DNA of 64,000 bases, taken from Escherichia coli (GTDB lineage: Bacteria; Pseudomonadota; Gammaproteobacteria; Enterobacterales; Enterobacteriaceae). Below the pieces are notes generated by a model, which had not been told where the DNA came from, did not search any database, and saw only the letters and a program-made list of their open reading frames with translations. Made by a program: the position numbers and the translations under genes. Position 1 is the first letter of the stretch. Each line of letters begins with the position of its first letter. Where the stretch lies: the NCBI RefSeq assembly GCF_044324875.1, contig NZ_CP172185.1. One strand, given 5' to 3'. Shown here piece by piece: positions 1 through 26,309 of this stretch.

Positions 1-830
1 CGGGAAGCCCTTTTACCGGCGAACGTACTTTACCGCCGGAAGTGATGGCCAATATCGAAGCGAAATATCATCTTAATGATCCGATCATGACACAGTATTT
101 CAGCTACCTGAAACAACTGGCGCATGGCGATTTCGGTCCATCGTTTAAATATAAAGATTATTCGGTCAACGACCTGGTTGCATCCAGTTTTCCCGTTTCT
201 GCCAAACTGGGAGCCGCAGCATTTTTCCTTGCGGTAATACTGGGTGTTAGTGCTGGCGTTATTGCAGCATTAAAACAAAACACCAAATGGGACTATACCG
301 TGATGGGGCTGGCAATGACCGGGGTTGTTATCCCCAGTTTTGTGGTTGCGCCATTATTAGTCATGATATTTGCGATCATTTTGCATTGGCTGCCGGGCGG
401 TGGCTGGAATGGTGGTGCGCTTAAATTCATGATACTGCCAATGGTGGCGTTGTCACTCGCCTATATCGCCAGTATTGCGCGTATTACCCGTGGCTCTATG
501 ATTGAAGTATTACACTCCAACTTTATTCGTACTGCCCGGGCGAAAGGGTTACCTATGCGGCGGATCATTTTACGCCACGCATTAAAACCTGCTCTGTTAC
601 CCGTGCTCTCCTATATGGGCCCTGCATTTGTCGGCATTATTACCGGTTCTATGGTCATCGAAACCATTTATGGTTTGCCGGGGATTGGGCAATTGTTCGT
701 TAATGGTGCATTGAACCGTGACTATTCCTTAGTGTTAAGCCTGACCATTCTGGTTGGCGCGTTAACCATTTTGTTTAATGCCATTGTCGATGTGCTATAT
801 GCGGTTATCGACCCGAAAATCCGTTACTGA
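1..830 (+). CDS. oppB: oligopeptide ABC transporter permease OppB (5' end cut by window edge)
   Basis: Frame is open from nt 3 to stop at 828-830; translation matches remembered OppB C-terminal two thirds; first gene of opp permease/ATPase run. Confidence 0.9.
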   Translation, partial: GSPFTGERTLPPEVMANIEAKYHLNDPIMTQYFSYLKQLAHGDFGPSFKYKDYSVNDLVASSFPVSAKLGAAAFFLAVILGVSAGVIAALKQNTKWDYTVMGLAMTGVVIPSFVVAPLLVMIFAIILHWLPGGGWNGGALKFMILPMVALSLAYIASIARITRGSMIEVLHSNFIRTARAKGLPMRRIILRHALKPALLPVLSYMGPAFVGIITGSMVIETIYGLPGIGQLFVNGALNRDYSLVLSLTILVGALTILFNAIVDVLYAVIDPKIRY

Positions 831-21762: not shown

Positions 21763-23658
21763 ATGGCAGGGATATATCGCTGCATTTTGCTGTTGATAGT
21801 TGGGCTTTTTTTCTCTTCGTTGAGTTATCCGAAAAACACGGAGATCCCTTTTTATGAAGAAGGGATCTCGCTCTTTGATGTTGAAGCCACTCTGCAACCG
21901 GATGGGGTGCTCGACATCAAAGAAAATATTCATTTTCAGGCGCGAAATCAGCAGATTAAGCACGGATTTTATCGTGATTTACCACGACTCTGGATGCAGC
22001 CTGATGGGGACGCTGCACTGCTGAACTATCATATTGTTGGCGTCACCCGTGATGGTATTCCTGAACCCTGGCATCTTGACTGGCATATCGGGTTAATGAG
22101 TATTGTCGTGGGCGATAAACAACGTTTCTTGCCTCAAGGCGACTATCATTATCAAATTCATTATCAGGTTAAAAATGCTTTCCTGCGTGAGGGAGATTCA
22201 GATCTGTTAATCTGGAACGTGACTGGTAACCACTGGCCGTTTGAAATCTATAAGACCCGATTTTCACTCAAGTTCCCTGATATCGCGGGTAATCCATTTA
22301 GCGAAATCGATCTCTTTACTGGAGAAGAGGGCGACACATATCGAAATGGCCGCATCCTTGAGGACGGAAGAATTGAATCCCGCGATCCGTTTTATCGTGA
22401 AGATTTCACGGTACTCTACCGCTGGCCTCACGCTTTACTTAGCAATGCCCCGGCTCCACAAACGACGAATATTTTCAGCCATCTTCTTTTACCCTCCACG
22501 TCATCGTTGTTAATTTGGTTTCCGTGTCTATTCCTGGTTTGTGGATGGTTATATCTCTGGAAGCGCAGGCCGCAATTTACGCCGGTAGATGTGATTGAAA
22601 CCGATGTCATTCCGCCAGATTACACGCCCGGCATGTTACGTCTCGATGCGAAGCTGGTTTACGACGATAAAGGTTTTTGTGCCGATATCGTAAATCTGAT
22701 TGTGAAAGGCAAAATTCATCTGAAAGATCAGTATGACAAGAACCAGCAAATCCTGATTCGTGTTAATGAAGGCGCGACCAGAAATAATGCGGTATTACTG
22801 CCCGCAGAGAAGTTATTACTGGAAGCGTTATTTCGTAAAGGCGATAAGGTCGTTCTTACGGGGAGACGCAACAGAGTCTTACGCAGTGCATTTTTACGGA
22901 TGCAGAAATTTTATCTGCCGCGTAAAAAGTCTTCGTTTTACCGGCCTGATACGTTTTTGCAATGGGGCGGAATGGCGATATTGGCGGTCATTCTCTATGG
23001 TAACCTGAGTCCCGTAGGTTGGGCAGGAATGAGTCTGGTTGGCGATATGTTTATTATGATCTGCTGGCTTCTTCCTTTTTTATTTTGTTCCCTTGAGCTT
23101 TTGTTTGCCCGCGATGATGACAAGCCTTGCGTTAATCGTGTAATCATCACTTTGTTTTTACCGCTGATTTGTTCAGGCGTGGCCTTTTACTCTCTCTATA
23201 TCAATGTCGGAGATGTATTCTTTTACTGGTATATGCCAGCGGGTTATTTTAGCGCTGTTTTCCTGACCGGTTATCTCACTGGCATAGGGTATATTTTTCT
23301 GCCAAAGTTTACCCAAACTGGGCAGCAACGTTATGCCCACGGTGAAGCTATCGTTAACTATCTTGCGGGTAAAGAGGCAGCAACACACAGTGGGCGGCGG
23401 CGGAAAGGGGAAACACGGAAACTGGATTACGCGTTGTTAGGTTGGGCGGTCTCGGCAAACCTTGGCAGAGAATGGGCAGCACGTATCACCCCATCACTCA
23501 CAGCGGCTGTTCGCGCCCCGGAAATTGCCCGTAGTGGCGTTTTGTTCTCATTACAGATGCACCTGAGTCTGGGGGCCAATACCAGTTTGTTGGGGCGAAG
23601 TTATTCCGGTGGTGGTGCTGGCGGCGGGGCGGGTGGCGGAGGCGGTGGTGGCTGGTAA
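21763..23658 (+). CDS. yciQ: DUF2207 family membrane protein YciQ
   Basis: 631 aa with N-terminal signal/TM, central TM cluster and Gly-rich C-terminal tail. Confidence 0.88.
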   Translation: MAGIYRCILLLIVGLFFSSLSYPKNTEIPFYEEGISLFDVEATLQPDGVLDIKENIHFQARNQQIKHGFYRDLPRLWMQPDGDAALLNYHIVGVTRDGIPEPWHLDWHIGLMSIVVGDKQRFLPQGDYHYQIHYQVKNAFLREGDSDLLIWNVTGNHWPFEIYKTRFSLKFPDIAGNPFSEIDLFTGEEGDTYRNGRILEDGRIESRDPFYREDFTVLYRWPHALLSNAPAPQTTNIFSHLLLPSTSSLLIWFPCLFLVCGWLYLWKRRPQFTPVDVIETDVIPPDYTPGMLRLDAKLVYDDKGFCADIVNLIVKGKIHLKDQYDKNQQILIRVNEGATRNNAVLLPAEKLLLEALFRKGDKVVLTGRRNRVLRSAFLRMQKFYLPRKKSSFYRPDTFLQWGGMAILAVILYGNLSPVGWAGMSLVGDMFIMICWLLPFLFCSLELLFARDDDKPCVNRVIITLFLPLICSGVAFYSLYINVGDVFFYWYMPAGYFSAVFLTGYLTGIGYIFLPKFTQTGQQRYAHGEAIVNYLAGKEAATHSGRRRKGETRKLDYALLGWAVSANLGREWAARITPSLTAAVRAPEIARSGVLFSLQMHLSLGANTSLLGRSYSGGGAGGGAGGGGGGGW

Positions 23659-24744: not shown

Positions 24745-24763
24745 TTTAAGATAAGTATAAAAT

Positions 24764-24787
24764 AAAGGCCCTGCGGGGCCTTTTCTT
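24764..24787 (+). terminator. rluB intrinsic terminator
   Basis: AGGCCC-tgcg-GGGCCT hairpin followed by TTTTCTT 20 nt after rluB stop. Confidence 0.75.
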
Positions 24788-24913
24788 CATTTGAAGCATG
24801 ATAAATAGTCGCAGTATTTTAATTTAATTTCATACTTGCTTATGAATAATACCCGGAAATAGCCACATTACTATTTAATTATCTGAGATAAACTCAACGT
24901 CAAGAGGTGGGTT

Positions 24914-25936
24914 ATGATTAGATATAGTGGAATATTTCTATCGCTGTTAATGCTTTCAGGTTGTGCAACTGAAGCATTGAAAAACGAACAAGCTGAAACT
25001 GTTATTACTGCGGGTAACAAAGCAGTAGCGGCGAATGCAAGTTTCTTTAAACAATACTATGCTTCTCGTGAAAACTTCCTTGTTAATTTTTATGCGACTA
25101 ATCCGGATTGTGCACCTCGACCAGATTATGAGGTAGTTATTGAAAACAGTACCAGTGATGAGTCATTATGTCAGCAACCTGGAGATAAGCACAAAAAATC
25201 TCAAGAAGATCTTTTTATTACAAAGATAGTCGCTACTGAAAAAGAAAGATTGCTGGCTTCTATGGAAATCATTAGCAGTATGAGTTCTTATGTCGAACTT
25301 TTGAATGAGGATTTAGATGTTAAAGACAGCAAACAGTTCATATTGCTTAAACAAGCTCTGGATCACGCGAATAATGCGGGGGCACTTCTGGGCATCAATG
25401 ATGGTGGAACATTAACAAAATCTGCAGCAGCGGTTAAAGATTTAGTGGTTTATTTCAATGGGTTGTATAATACAAGGGTAAGCGCAGGGAATATAGGTAG
25501 TACGGTAAATAATCATTGGCAAAGAATAAAAAATGATCTAACTGATATACGAAACGATATCGCGACAAAAGGTAAACAAACTGGAAGAAATACCTTTGCG
25601 ACGGTACATAATAATCTCGTTTATTACAATGCCTCCTTAAAAAAAGGAGGAGGTAATGAATTTAAGACATTGAAGAGCAGACAAGAATTCCTGGCTGCGA
25701 TTATCAGTATTAATGAAACACGTCTTCGTGCAGCAGATCCAGCTATTCCAGCAATACAAGCACTGAACTCATTTCTTGACGAGGGGAATCACCTTAAGGA
25801 TTTATACACTAATAAAATACGCACAGCGGCTGAACAAAAAAGGCTAAATGAAATATTACGCGCACAGGTCATTAGTGGGTTAAAGGCGTCTGAGGGGCTG
25901 GCAAAACTACTTATTGCCAGCGGAATAATGTTATAG
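24914..25936 (+). CDS. predicted lipoprotein of unknown function (340 aa; AT-rich accessory gene absent from K-12 order)
   Basis: SD AAGAGGTG 6 nt before ATG; signal peptide MIRYSGIFLSLLMLSGC with lipobox L-S-G-C, +2 Ala; AT-rich codon usage; no family recognised. Confidence 0.75.
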   Translation: MIRYSGIFLSLLMLSGCATEALKNEQAETVITAGNKAVAANASFFKQYYASRENFLVNFYATNPDCAPRPDYEVVIENSTSDESLCQQPGDKHKKSQEDLFITKIVATEKERLLASMEIISSMSSYVELLNEDLDVKDSKQFILLKQALDHANNAGALLGINDGGTLTKSAAAVKDLVVYFNGLYNTRVSAGNIGSTVNNHWQRIKNDLTDIRNDIATKGKQTGRNTFATVHNNLVYYNASLKKGGGNEFKTLKSRQEFLAAIISINETRLRAADPAIPAIQALNSFLDEGNHLKDLYTNKIRTAAEQKRLNEILRAQVISGLKASEGLAKLLIASGIML

Positions 25937-25948
25937 GAGGGGCTTTTT

Positions 25949-26257
25949 ATGAACGATGTACAAAACCGTAGAATATTGGCATTACTTGATATGCTGTATA
26001 ATACTCTGGGCAACAAAACCACATGCAAGGTTTGTCATAAATATTTTATCCTTATCCTCACGGTGATGAACAATCTGACGATTAACTACGGTACTGAAAC
26101 TTCGCCAGAGTTAAGCGGAATCAGTTATGAAGATGCCAATGCGTTAATTACTGAACTGATATTATTTATTGAAGATGTTGACGCTGAGAATCATGAAGCA
26201 TATCCGGGACATTTGAATGAGATTAAACGGATTCTGAGTTTTGCTATTGCCGCTTGA
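25949..26257 (+). CDS. small hypothetical protein (102 aa) co-transcribed with upstream lipoprotein
   Basis: SD TAGGAGG overlaps stop of upstream ORF, ATG 12 nt downstream; no signal peptide; CKVCH motif, acidic C-terminal half; AT-rich. Confidence 0.65.
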   Translation: MNDVQNRRILALLDMLYNTLGNKTTCKVCHKYFILILTVMNNLTINYGTETSPELSGISYEDANALITELILFIEDVDAENHEAYPGHLNEIKRILSFAIAA

Positions 26258-26271
26258 ATATAATTATGATT

Positions 26272-26306
26272 AAAGCACCTCAAGAGGCGATCTTTTGAGG
26301 TGCTTT
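26272..26306. terminator. perfect 12-bp stem hairpin abutting btuR stop (bidirectional terminator candidate)
   Basis: AAAGCACCTCAA-gaggcgatctt-TTGAGGTGCTTT read directly; lies between the small ORF and convergent btuR. Confidence 0.65.
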
Positions 26307-26309
26307 CAC

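What the first reader, a model, noticed from the sequence alone, without database searches (positions are those of the whole stretch)
24914..25936. 340-aa predicted outer-membrane lipoprotein with no recognisable domain
The N-terminus MIRYSGIFLSLLMLSGC has a positively charged n-region, hydrophobic core and a canonical lipobox (L-S-G-C). The +2 residue is Ala, which by the Lol sorting rule predicts outer-membrane localisation. The mature part is Lys/Asn/Ala/Leu-rich and looks largely helical, with two further Cys (NPDC..., ...SLCQQ) that could form a periplasmic disulfide. I see no catalytic motif such as a protease, nuclease or peptidoglycan hydrolase signature.
Basis: partly seen in the sequence, partly recalled or inferred. 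Interest (0 to 1): 0.55.

Follow-up and report, generated by a model that had tools for sequence, protein, structure and literature searches.

The report
Orphan polymorphic lipoprotein with small partner
The ORF is a real, very probably outer-membrane-anchored helical lipoprotein. It founds an undescribed proteobacterial family that always travels with a small cytoplasmic partner gene, is carried by about a quarter of E. coli strains in deeply diverged allelic forms, and has no known function.

Summary
Window 24914-25936 (+) encodes a 340-aa protein with a canonical lipobox (L-S-G-C17), Ala at +2, two further Cys and an all-helical mature part.

The window is E. coli chromosome. The gene and a translationally coupled 102-aa ORF (25949-26257) form a 1.5-kb AT-rich islet between rluB and cobO/btuR. 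K-12 lacks the islet.

No Pfam, NCBIfam, PADLOC, PHROG or PDB sequence match exists. An exhaustive HMMER search found about 35 full-length remote relatives (13-25% identity). All have a lipobox, never Asp at +2, a second Cys exactly 49 residues after the lipid Cys, and a third Cys 17-28 residues later, implying a disulfide-closed loop.

A partner gene follows in essentially every context, usually of about 100 aa. One context is a P2-like prophage cargo slot and another is a Hachiman defence island. In remote clades proteases lie next to the pair.

1234 of 5426 complete E. coli genomes carry the pair. Alleles differ by dS of about 1 against about 0.1 in the flanks, and the loop is most variable.

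The lipoprotein call is solid. The proposed function, a non-enzymatic envelope binder in a conflict or exclusion role, is inferred and uncertain.

The parts
24764..24783 (+). rluB intrinsic terminator hairpin. It marks the left boundary of the islet.
   Evidence: 8-bp stem with 5 GC pairs, followed by a T-run; sequence
24745..26309 (.). AT-rich accessory islet between the rluB stop codon and the cobO stop codon. GC is 36-40% against about 50-55% in the flanks. It is absent from K-12-like genomes, where rluB and cobO lie 39 nt apart.
24904..24909 (+). Shine-Dalgarno GAGGTG, 4 nt upstream of the ATG of the lipoprotein gene. No sigma-70-like promoter scoring at least 9 of 12 was found between the terminator and the gene.
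24914..25936 (+). Lipoprotein gene (340 aa; WP_000622028.1)
24914..24961 (+). Signal peptide, residues 1-16 (MIRYSGIFLSLLMLSG)
   Evidence: conserved in kind across the family
24953..24964 (+). Lipobox L14-S15-G16-C17. Cys17 is the predicted lipidated N-terminus of the mature protein, followed by Ala18 at +2.
25109..25171 (+). Cys66 to Cys86, the predicted disulfide-closed loop. Cys66 lies exactly 49 residues after Cys17, as in every family member.
25109..25237 (+). Hypervariable segment, residues 66-108. It is the most diverged part between E. coli alleles (pN/pS 0.33-0.92, against 0.2-0.3 in the helices). In the model it forms a small beta-hairpin (73-77 / 100-104).
25935..25940 (+). Shine-Dalgarno AGGAGG of the partner gene. 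It overlaps the TAG stop of the lipoprotein gene (25934-25936), which indicates translational coupling.
25949..26257 (+). Partner gene (102 aa; WP_001000709.1). The product has pI 4.8, no signal peptide and no transmembrane segment.

Best explanation
**Shown**
- The ORF encodes a genuine exported lipoprotein and is the E. coli representative of an undescribed proteobacterial family (324-357 aa).
- The family anatomy is: a lipobox Cys; a long first helix of fixed length; a disulfide-closed variable loop (Cys+49 to Cys+66..77); then an up-down alpha-helical bundle with no conserved catalytic residue.
- It is co-expressed with a small helical partner that looks cytoplasmic. Together they form a self-contained two-gene module.

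**Inferred**
- In E. coli the protein is sorted by Lol to the outer membrane (Ala at +2).
- It acts by binding rather than by catalysis, and the disulfide loop and helix 196-245 act as specificity surfaces.
- The module serves an envelope-level conflict function. The proposal is exclusion or guarding of an envelope component against an invader such as a phage, a bacteriocin or a foreign element, in the manner of the receptor-masking lipoproteins TraT, Llp and Cor.
- The grounds for a conflict role are:
  - the module is accessory;
  - it sits as a compositionally foreign islet;
  - it is occasionally carried in a prophage cargo slot or a defence island;
  - it is held in E. coli as anciently diverged, mosaic alleles.
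- The partner may chaperone or restrain the lipoprotein before export, or couple it to a cytoplasmic or inner-membrane effector. Remote relatives in which the partner carries a 4-TM domain or a zincin-like protease domain suggest the latter.

**Sub-confidences:** real lipoprotein about 0.85; functional two-gene module about 0.8; non-enzymatic binder about 0.6; conflict or exclusion role about 0.3.
For: **Lipoprotein and disulfide.** The lipobox pattern and Ala at +2 are present. The lipobox, the absence of Asp at +2, Cys at +49 and a third Cys 17-28 residues later hold in all 39 aligned members and 9 extra loci at 13-25% identity.

**Two-gene module.**
- The Shine-Dalgarno of ORF2 overlaps the ORF1 stop.
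- An 88-108-aa gene follows the lipoprotein gene in E. coli, Citrobacter, Buttiauxella, Klebsiella, Methylomonas, Pantoea, Yokenella and 5 metagenomic loci.
- Longer versions occupy the same position in other loci.

**Accessory and foreign-looking.**
- The site is empty in K-12-like strains.
- 1234 of 5426 complete E. coli genomes carry the module.
- Module GC is 0.36-0.42 against 0.50-0.555 in the flanks in five enterobacterial hosts.

**Mobile or defence contexts.**
- Buttiauxella: the module lies exactly between gpS and gpV of a P2-like prophage. This is the orf30 slot, known for horizontally acquired genes (PMC3091744).
- Klebsiella/Raoultella: it lies next to a complete Hachiman system (HamA 1.6e-135, HamB 1e-278) and an integrase.
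- Methylomonas: it lies next to VapBC, Fic and a transposase.

**Polymorphism.**
- dS between alleles is 0.9-1.3, against 0.06-0.12 for rluB and yciK.
- dN/dS is 0.18-0.25, against 0-0.06 in the flanks.
- The gene is mosaic, with an identical 5' third.
- The loop at 66-108 is the most variable part.

**Precedent.** TraT masks OmpA and T5 Llp masks FhuA (PMC8829019).
Against: - No similarity to any PADLOC or PHROG model, including for remote members and partners.
- No family member was found in 50,697 phage genomes or in IMG/VR viral contigs, using five query sets. The prophage case is therefore an exception.
- In Escherichia and Citrobacter the module keeps one syntenic chromosomal slot between housekeeping genes. 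In Yokenella, Pantoea and L021 it also sits among housekeeping genes. Only about 3-4 of 12 independent contexts are mobile or defence-related.
- dN/dS never exceeds 1, even in the loop. Positive selection is not shown, and synonymous sites are saturated.
- A partner without any export signal is hard to fit to a purely outer-membrane masking mechanism.
- No expression, localisation or phenotype data exist in the searched literature.
Confidence: 0.4

Rival explanations
1. It is a host-interaction or surface-antigen lipoprotein. It would be exposed at, or released from, the outer membrane, as with the prophage or plasmid lipoproteins Bor/Iss and TraT or the polymorphic helical surface lipoproteins of Borrelia. 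Immune or niche pressure would diversify it. The downstream gene would be a dedicated cytoplasmic chaperone or regulator.
For: - The alleles are deep and mosaic, with the most variable part in a disulfide-constrained loop.
- The module is present in ExPEC lineages such as ST131 and in avian and human isolates.
- One copy sits in a prophage cargo slot, where lysogenic-conversion genes are found.
Against: - Family members occur in free-living and environmental high-GC bacteria and in Methylomonas. Host immunity cannot be the common selective force there.
- There is no evidence of surface exposure.
- dN/dS is below 1.
- The fold match is generic.
Confidence: 0.2
2. It is an accessory envelope factor for a cytoplasmically made hydrolase. 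The lipoprotein and partner would form a trans-envelope device that releases, activates or restrains a protease or nuclease. E. coli would retain only the minimal two-gene core, which would act on a host enzyme or be vestigial.
For: **Metagenomic clade L025/L028/L032/L033.** The partner is about 250 aa with four transmembrane helices. Its neighbours are:
- directly downstream, a protealysin-like M4 protease;
- then a 116-aa ORF weakly matching PDB 6zyg, 'protealysin-associated protein', read here as the protealysin inhibitor emfourin;
- upstream, a NucA/EndoG-type nuclease.

**L012.** A 773-aa protein carrying HEIGHALNLAH takes the partner position, and a Trypco2 gene lies nearby.

**L024.** An S8 subtilase lies immediately upstream.

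**Literature.** Protealysin is an intracellular protease (PMC9505478).
Against: - No protease or nuclease lies next to the module in any of the seven named gammaproteobacterial hosts, E. coli included.
- The four M4-linked loci are close relatives and count as one evolutionary event.
- The zincin hit in L012 is weak (E 0.018).
- Homology of the long partners to the 100-aa partners is not demonstrable by sequence.
Confidence: 0.15
3. It is a toxin-immunity or addiction-type pair. The lipoprotein would be harmful, for example through envelope-perturbing helices, and the small acidic cytoplasmic protein would neutralise or hold it before export.
For: - The gene pair is tight and translationally coupled, and the second product is small and acidic.
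- Distribution is sporadic and islet-like, and the Methylomonas copy neighbours TA genes.
- Truncated or IS-disrupted copies occur in some strains.
Against: - No hydrophobic beta-tongue or hairpin is present. The hairpin region is hydrophilic (sequence).
- No conserved enzymatic residues exist.
- The MakB match is at the level of many unrelated helical bundles.
- An exported lipoprotein and a cytoplasmic antidote do not share a compartment after export.
Confidence: 0.1
4. It is a distant member of the DUF3829/YiiG lipoprotein family (PF12889) or of the imelysin-like helical lipoproteins, and therefore just another paralogue of a known but uncharacterised family.
For: - Foldseek against AFDB50 lists several 'DUF3829 domain-containing' and 'imelysin-like' proteins (E 1.5e-11 to 5e-2).
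- Size, lipobox and helical content are similar to E. coli YiiG.
Against: - Pfam PF12889 does not hit the protein or any of 39 family members.
- HHalign of the family profile against a 25-sequence YiiG/DUF3829 profile gives 3.6% probability.
- The best 'DUF3829' AFDB hit, from Yokenella, most likely is the family member recovered from Yokenella as L019.
- True DUF3829 hits have TM-scores of only 0.36-0.43.
- The conserved motifs differ: YiiG has Y81, C84, N86, R98, Y99, W102 and others.
Confidence: 0.08

Closest known systems
Receptor-masking or exclusion outer-membrane lipoproteins: F-plasmid TraT, phage T5 Llp, and phage phi80/N15 Cor
   Same: - Lipobox proteins sorted to the outer membrane.
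- Non-enzymatic; they act by binding an envelope protein.
- Carried as accessory cargo.
- One relative of this protein sits in a P2-like prophage cargo slot.
   Different: - No sequence or profile similarity (PHROGs and PADLOC negative).
- Llp and Cor are about 60-80 aa, and TraT has a different fold (my own knowledge).
- This protein is a 324-aa helical bundle with a disulfide loop.
- It has an obligatory partner gene that looks cytoplasmic.
- It is essentially absent from sequenced phages.
DUF3829 / YiiG lipoproteins (Pfam PF12889)
   Same: - Enterobacterial lipoproteins of about 330-350 aa.
- Predicted to be helical.
- Of unknown function.
- Weak Foldseek similarity.
   Different: - No HMM or profile-profile relationship.
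- Different conserved residues.
- yiiG in K-12 has no small partner gene next to it.
Polymorphic helical-bundle surface lipoproteins of Borrelia (the FbpB / BBK32 C-terminal domain type)
   Same: - Lipidated all-alpha bundles.
- Strong allelic diversity.
   Different: - The match is generic.
- The organisms and export routes differ.
- Surface exposure is not shown here.
ClyA-family alpha-pore-forming toxins (ClyA, MakB)
   Same: - A rod-like helical bundle of about 300-360 aa with one small beta-hairpin and a pair of Cys.
   Different: - The hairpin is hydrophilic rather than a hydrophobic beta-tongue.
- The protein carries a lipobox.
- No sequence similarity.
- The score is no better than for designed helical repeats.
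Protealysin-emfourin operons (M4 protealysin-like protease plus intracellular inhibitor)
   Same: A remote clade of the lipoprotein/partner pair is directly followed by such a bicistron.
   Different: - This is neighbourhood only.
- The window's module has no protease nearby.
- The partner does not resemble emfourin.

Membership tests
Bacterial lipoproteins (Lgt/LspA/Lnt substrates; PROSITE PS51257-type signal) | N-terminal signal peptide ending in a lipobox [LVI]-[ASTVI]-[GAS]-C | tested here: met
   MIRYSGIFLSLLMLSGC matches the pattern. A lipobox is present in all 39 family members and 9 extra loci although the signal peptides themselves have diverged.
Bacterial lipoproteins (Lgt/LspA/Lnt substrates; PROSITE PS51257-type signal) | Outer-membrane sorting: no Asp at +2 (the enterobacterial Lol avoidance rule) | tested here: met
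   +2 is Ala in the window protein. Across the family it is A 29, G 7, S 1, T 1 and D 0.
Bacterial lipoproteins (Lgt/LspA/Lnt substrates; PROSITE PS51257-type signal) | Actual lipidation, globomycin-sensitive processing and membrane fractionation | not testable with these tools
   These need experiments. SignalP and LipoP were also unavailable.
DUF3829 / YiiG (PF12889) | Match to the Pfam HMM | tested here: not met
   No Pfam hit even at E<=10 for the window protein, and none of 39 relatives hits PF12889.
DUF3829 / YiiG (PF12889) | Profile-profile homology to YiiG relatives | tested here: not met
   HHalign of A3 against A9 gives 3.6% probability over 30 columns. With YiiG alone, only the lipobox aligns.
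DUF3829 / YiiG (PF12889) | Same fold | tested here: inconclusive
   Foldseek hits to true DUF3829 proteins have E 3.5e-4 to 5e-2 and TM-scores of 0.36-0.43.
Imelysin-like (Peptidase_M75) helical lipoproteins | Conserved HxxE metal-binding motif and two four-helix-bundle domains | tested here: not met
Known anti-phage defence systems (PADLOC-DB v2.0.0) | HMM match of either gene product to a defence-system component | tested here: not met
   No hits for the window pair, for 8 remote lipoproteins and their partners, or for the long partners.
Phage superinfection-exclusion lipoproteins (Llp, Cor) and phage protein families (PHROGs) | Sequence-family membership, or presence in phage genomes | tested here: not met
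   PHROGs gives only signal-peptide-level noise (E about 0.1). There are no tblastn hits in 50,697 phage records, none in IMG/VR and no BFVD fold match.
ClyA-family alpha-pore-forming toxins | Hydrophobic beta-tongue or head domain for membrane insertion | tested here: not met
Unimolecular spanins (lipobox plus C-terminal TMD) | C-terminal transmembrane helix | tested here: not met
   The best C-terminal 19-residue window has Kyte-Doolittle hydropathy 1.1 (GLKASEGLAKLLIASGIML), and the hydrophobic run is only about 12 residues long.

The most novel reading that the evidence does not exclude
The lipoprotein and its ~100-aa partner are the minimal core of a previously unrecognised two-component trans-envelope conflict system of Proteobacteria.

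- **Sensor or blocker:** an outer-membrane helical lipoprotein with a hypervariable disulfide loop would recognise or block an incoming agent such as a phage, a bacteriocin or a conjugative element.
- **Output module:** a cytoplasmic adaptor domain that can stand alone, be fused to a 4-TM membrane domain or a zincin protease, or be paired with a protealysin-like protease.
- **Population genetics:** the ancient E. coli alleles would be specificity variants maintained by balancing selection.
Probability: 0.22. Interest if true: 0.72.

Novelty: new variant of a known kind. Interest (0 to 1): 0.45.

Why it matters
**Why it matters**
- About 23% of complete E. coli genomes, including pandemic ST131, carry this pair as 'hypothetical proteins'.
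- The family has no model in Pfam, NCBIfam, PHROGs or PADLOC.
- The locus is a compact 1.5-kb, two-gene unit with a natural knock-out background (K-12) and at least three natural allele classes. Function and allele specificity are therefore directly testable.

**If it proves to be an exclusion or defence module**
- It would add an outer-membrane lipoprotein-based system to the E. coli immune repertoire.
- It would explain one of the species' deeply polymorphic loci.

**If it proves to be a protease-linked envelope device**
- It would bear on how signal-less protealysin-like proteases are handled.

**Even if neither holds**
- The strict 49-residue ruler and the disulfide loop define a clean new lipoprotein family for annotation.

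Tried and rejected
**Family and structure searches**
- Pfam, NCBIfam, PADLOC, PHROGs and PDB sequence searches on both proteins, on remote relatives and on family profiles gave nothing usable.
- The first AF2 run, on a shallow 17-sequence alignment, gave pLDDT 45 and was discarded.
- The DUF3829/YiiG lead from Foldseek labels was rejected by HHalign and Pfam.
- Imelysin, ClyA-type toxin and u-spanin readings were rejected on motif or hydropathy grounds.

**Readings of the partner**
- A Tat signal in the partner (N-terminal 'QNRRILALL') was rejected. The h-region contains Asp and the RR is absent in relatives.
- A transmembrane segment in the E. coli partner was rejected (maximum hydropathy 1.06).
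- Homology among distant partners could be shown only within subgroups.

**Collection scans**
The A8 scan returned a single locus.
- Five viral-contig scans and two phage tblastn searches found no member.
- 'Plasmid' hits are chromosome-sized or mis-binned records, not real plasmid carriage.

**Literature**
- Searches by accession, by flanking genes, by DUF3829, and by prophage or exclusion terms found no report on this protein.
Full report
**1. The observation**

The window is E. coli chromosome. It is 100% identical over the queried stretch to NZ_OZ547043.1. The gene order is trpH(rnm)-yciO-yciQ-rluB-[two hypothetical genes]-cobO/btuR-yciK-sohB-yciN-topA.

- ATG start and 340 aa, beginning MIRYSGIFLSLLMLSGC-ATE.
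- Further Cys at positions 66 and 86.
- An Ala/Leu/Asn/Lys-rich mature part.
- A Shine-Dalgarno GAGGTG 4 nt upstream of the ATG.
- The rluB terminator hairpin (24764-24783) 130 nt further up.

A PROSITE-type lipobox pattern matches. RefSeq annotates the CDS as hypothetical protein WP_000622028.1.

**2.

Twelve nucleotides after the stop codon comes a 102-aa ORF (25949..26257, WP_001000709.1). Its AGGAGG Shine-Dalgarno overlaps the TAG of the lipoprotein gene. The product is acidic (pI 4.8) and has no signal peptide or transmembrane segment.

Both genes lie in a 1.5-kb stretch of 36-40% GC, flanked by DNA of about 50-55% GC. K-12-like strains have an empty site, with rluB and cobO 39 nt apart.

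**3. No known family**

- Pfam (even at E<=10), NCBIfam, PADLOC, PHROGs and PDB sequences give nothing for either protein.
- The word-indexed search of 5.8 billion proteins found only Escherichia, E. albertii and Citrobacter relatives for both proteins.
- The literature searches found no report.

**4. A wider family exists**

An exhaustive HMMER profile search of 1.84 billion cluster representatives found 56 hits. About 35 of them are full-length proteins of 324-357 aa at 13-25% identity.

Named hosts are Buttiauxella, Raoultella, Klebsiella, Rahnella, Pantoea, Methylomonas and Yokenella. Many others come from high-GC metagenomic organisms.

Family-wide features:
- All 39 aligned members carry a lipobox. 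The +2 residue is A, G, S or T, never D.
- The only invariant columns are the lipid Cys, Cys66, Cys86 and Tyr126.
- The second Cys lies exactly 49 residues after the lipid Cys in all but one of the 39 aligned members. That exception (probably P0079, not inspected) has an extra Cys just before its lipobox, which made the script pick the wrong lipid Cys.
- The third Cys follows 17-28 residues later.
- Nine further loci obey the same rules and score E 1e-58 to 1e-84 against the family HMM.

Three conclusions follow. The lipoprotein signal is functional. The two Cys form an extracytoplasmic disulfide closing a variable loop. No enzyme-like residues are conserved.

**5. Structure**

The shallow alignment gave an unusable model (pLDDT 45). 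The 39-sequence alignment gave pLDDT 77.4 and pTM 0.72. That model has a very long first helix, a small beta-hairpin (73-77 / 100-104) in the disulfide-loop region, and then six more long helices.

- BFVD gives nothing.
- AFDB50 returns the family itself plus proteins labelled DUF3829 or 'imelysin-like'.

I tested the DUF3829/YiiG lead:
- Pfam PF12889 hits none of the 39 members.
- HHalign against a 25-sequence YiiG profile gives 3.6% probability.
- The best 'DUF3829' hit, from Yokenella, most likely is the family member recovered from Yokenella (L019).

The protein is therefore not a DUF3829 member. At most it shares a helical-lipoprotein architecture with that family.

**6. The partner gene is part of the unit**

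A small ORF of 88-108 aa without an export signal follows the lipoprotein gene, with a 4-26 nt gap or an overlap, in these hosts and loci:
- E. coli
- Citrobacter (same rluB-cobO slot)
- Buttiauxella
- Klebsiella/Raoultella
- Methylomonas
- Pantoea
- Yokenella
- L014, L015, L021, L024 and L026

Sequence similarity between partners is detectable only within subgroups: window-Citrobacter-Buttiauxella, and Klebsiella-Pantoea, with weak links onward.

Two variant architectures occupy the same position:
- **Clade L025/L028/L030/L032/L033:** the downstream protein is about 250 aa. It has a 105-aa soluble N-terminal part, an Arg/Pro-rich linker and four strongly hydrophobic helices.
- **L012:** the downstream protein is 773 aa and carries HEIGHALNLAH, with weak Peptidase_M10 and Reprolysin hits.

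**7. Genomic contexts**

- **Buttiauxella:** the pair sits exactly between gpS and gpV of a P2-like prophage. This is the orf30 slot, one of three P2 regions known for horizontally acquired genes (PMC3091744).
- **Klebsiella/Raoultella:** the pair adjoins a complete Hachiman system and an integrase.
- **Methylomonas:** the pair lies among VapBC, Fic and a transposase.
- **Yokenella (dinB | nqrF), Pantoea and L021:** the pair is an isolated two-gene insert among housekeeping genes.
- **GC content:** in five enterobacterial hosts the module is 11-19 GC points below its flanks.
- **Phages:** no member was found in 50,697 phage genomes or in IMG/VR. The family is not typically phage-borne.

In remote clades proteases are neighbours:
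- a protealysin-like M4 protease followed by a 116-aa ORF weakly matching PDB 6zyg, 'protealysin-associated protein', read here as emfourin;
- a NucA/EndoG-type nuclease upstream in the same clade;
- the zincin-like fusion in L012, with a Trypco2 gene nearby;
- an S8 subtilase in L024.

**8. Population genetics in E. coli**

1234 of 5426 complete genomes carry the pair, with one or two apparent exceptions always at the rluB-cobO site. The window's allele is rare (33 genomes at 95% identity or more). Most genomes carry alleles only 72-79% identical in DNA, including ST131 and SMS-3-5.

| Measure | Lipoprotein gene, between allele classes | Flanks (rluB, yciK) |
|---|---|---|
| Amino-acid identity | 65-68% | 98.8-100% |
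| dS | 0.9-1.3 | 0.06-0.12 |
| dN/dS | 0.18-0.25 | 0-0.08 |

The divergence between alleles is as large as the E. coli-Citrobacter divergence of rluB (dS about 0.8).

The gene is mosaic:
- Residues 1-65 are identical in protein among three of the four alleles compared; the fourth (CT30) differs by one residue. Synonymous divergence there is low.
- The C-terminal 40 residues and the partner gene of the window allele group with the SMS-3-5/CT30 class but not with the ST131 class.
- Residues 66-108 (pN/pS 0.33-0.92) and 196-245 (0.48-0.61) are the most variable.
- No segment exceeds a ratio of 1.

Truncated and IS1-interrupted copies exist.

**9. Interpretation**

Firm conclusions:
- It is a real gene and a lipoprotein with an extracytoplasmic disulfide loop.
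- It belongs to an undescribed family.
- It forms a two-gene unit with the partner.
- The unit is accessory and highly polymorphic in E. coli.

Inferences:
- It is anchored in the outer membrane, by the Lol +2 rule.
- It works by non-catalytic binding, with the loop as a specificity surface.

The best-supported functional guess is an envelope-level conflict or exclusion role. The pattern fits one: patchy presence, foreign composition, occasional carriage in a prophage cargo slot and a defence island, and ancient mosaic alleles. Receptor-masking lipoproteins provide precedent (TraT, Llp; PMC8829019).

Five points weigh against this guess:
- There is no match to known defence or phage families.
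- The family is absent from phage collections.
- The chromosomal synteny is stable.
- dN/dS is below 1.
- The cytoplasmic partner remains unexplained.

I therefore give the functional part only about 0.3.

The rivals, with their confidences, are:
- a host-interaction or surface antigen (0.2);
- a protease- or hydrolase-linked envelope device, suggested by the remote contexts (0.15);
- a toxin-immunity pair (0.1);
- a hidden DUF3829 or imelysin member (0.08).

**10. Verdict**

The finding is more interesting than 'a lipoprotein without a domain', because it is a conserved two-gene module with striking allelic diversity and no annotation anywhere. Its function remains open, so interest is moderate.

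Noticed in passing
L025:1129-3002; L028:4740-9192; L032:4750-9201; L033:2155-5011: In one remote clade the gene order is: NucA/EndoG-type nuclease, lipoprotein, 250-aa partner (soluble domain plus 4 TM helices), protealysin-like M4 protease (with PLN propeptide), then a 116-aa ORF. The 116-aa ORF weakly matches PDB 6zyg, 'protealysin-associated protein' (E 0.035). I read it as emfourin, from my own knowledge plus its position after the protease. This is a possible functional link between the lipoprotein pair and signal-less hydrolases.
   Followed up: partly
L012:6035-8356 and L012:10619-10960: Here the partner position is taken by a 773-aa protein carrying a HEIGHALNLAH zincin motif (weak Peptidase_M10 and Reprolysin_5 hits). 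A Trypco2-domain gene lies three genes further downstream. The neighbourhood looks like a conflict system.
   Followed up: partly
L008:6749-10862: In Klebsiella variicola and Raoultella, a complete Hachiman defence system (HamA, HamB) and a phage-type integrase lie directly next to the lipoprotein pair. A 753-aa gene on the other side has no family hit.
   Followed up: partly
window 24914-25108 compared with L016, L017 and L018: The first 65 codons of the lipoprotein gene encode an identical protein in three of the four E. coli alleles compared (CT30 differs by one residue), and synonymous divergence there is low. The rest of the gene is saturated. This points to a recombination breakpoint at about Cys66, or to an extra constraint on the 5' part.
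   Followed up: partly
window 24784-24913: The consensus scan finds no sigma-70-like promoter between the rluB terminator and the lipoprotein start. This AT-rich, 130-nt leader may carry an atypical or H-NS-silenced promoter, or expression may rely on read-through from rluB.
   Followed up: no
window 26258-26309: The partner gene and cobO converge with only 52 nt between their stop codons. The scan found no terminator-like hairpin there.
   Followed up: no
window 21763-23658 (yciQ): The DUF2207 protein YciQ ends in a long Gly-rich tail (…SGGGAGGGAGGGGGGGW). yciQ is itself variably present: it is absent from strain 503025, which also lacks the lipoprotein pair (L002).
   Followed up: no
E. coli records H64 and H100; clusters P0019-P0026: Some strains carry N-terminally truncated lipoprotein ORFs or an IS1 insertion in the module. 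In one genome the partner gene is annotated as 'amino acid kinase family protein', which looks like an annotation artefact.
   Followed up: no
L013:3297-3698: In Pantoea an H-NS-family gene lies about 1.3 kb upstream of the module, with one gene in between.
   Followed up: no
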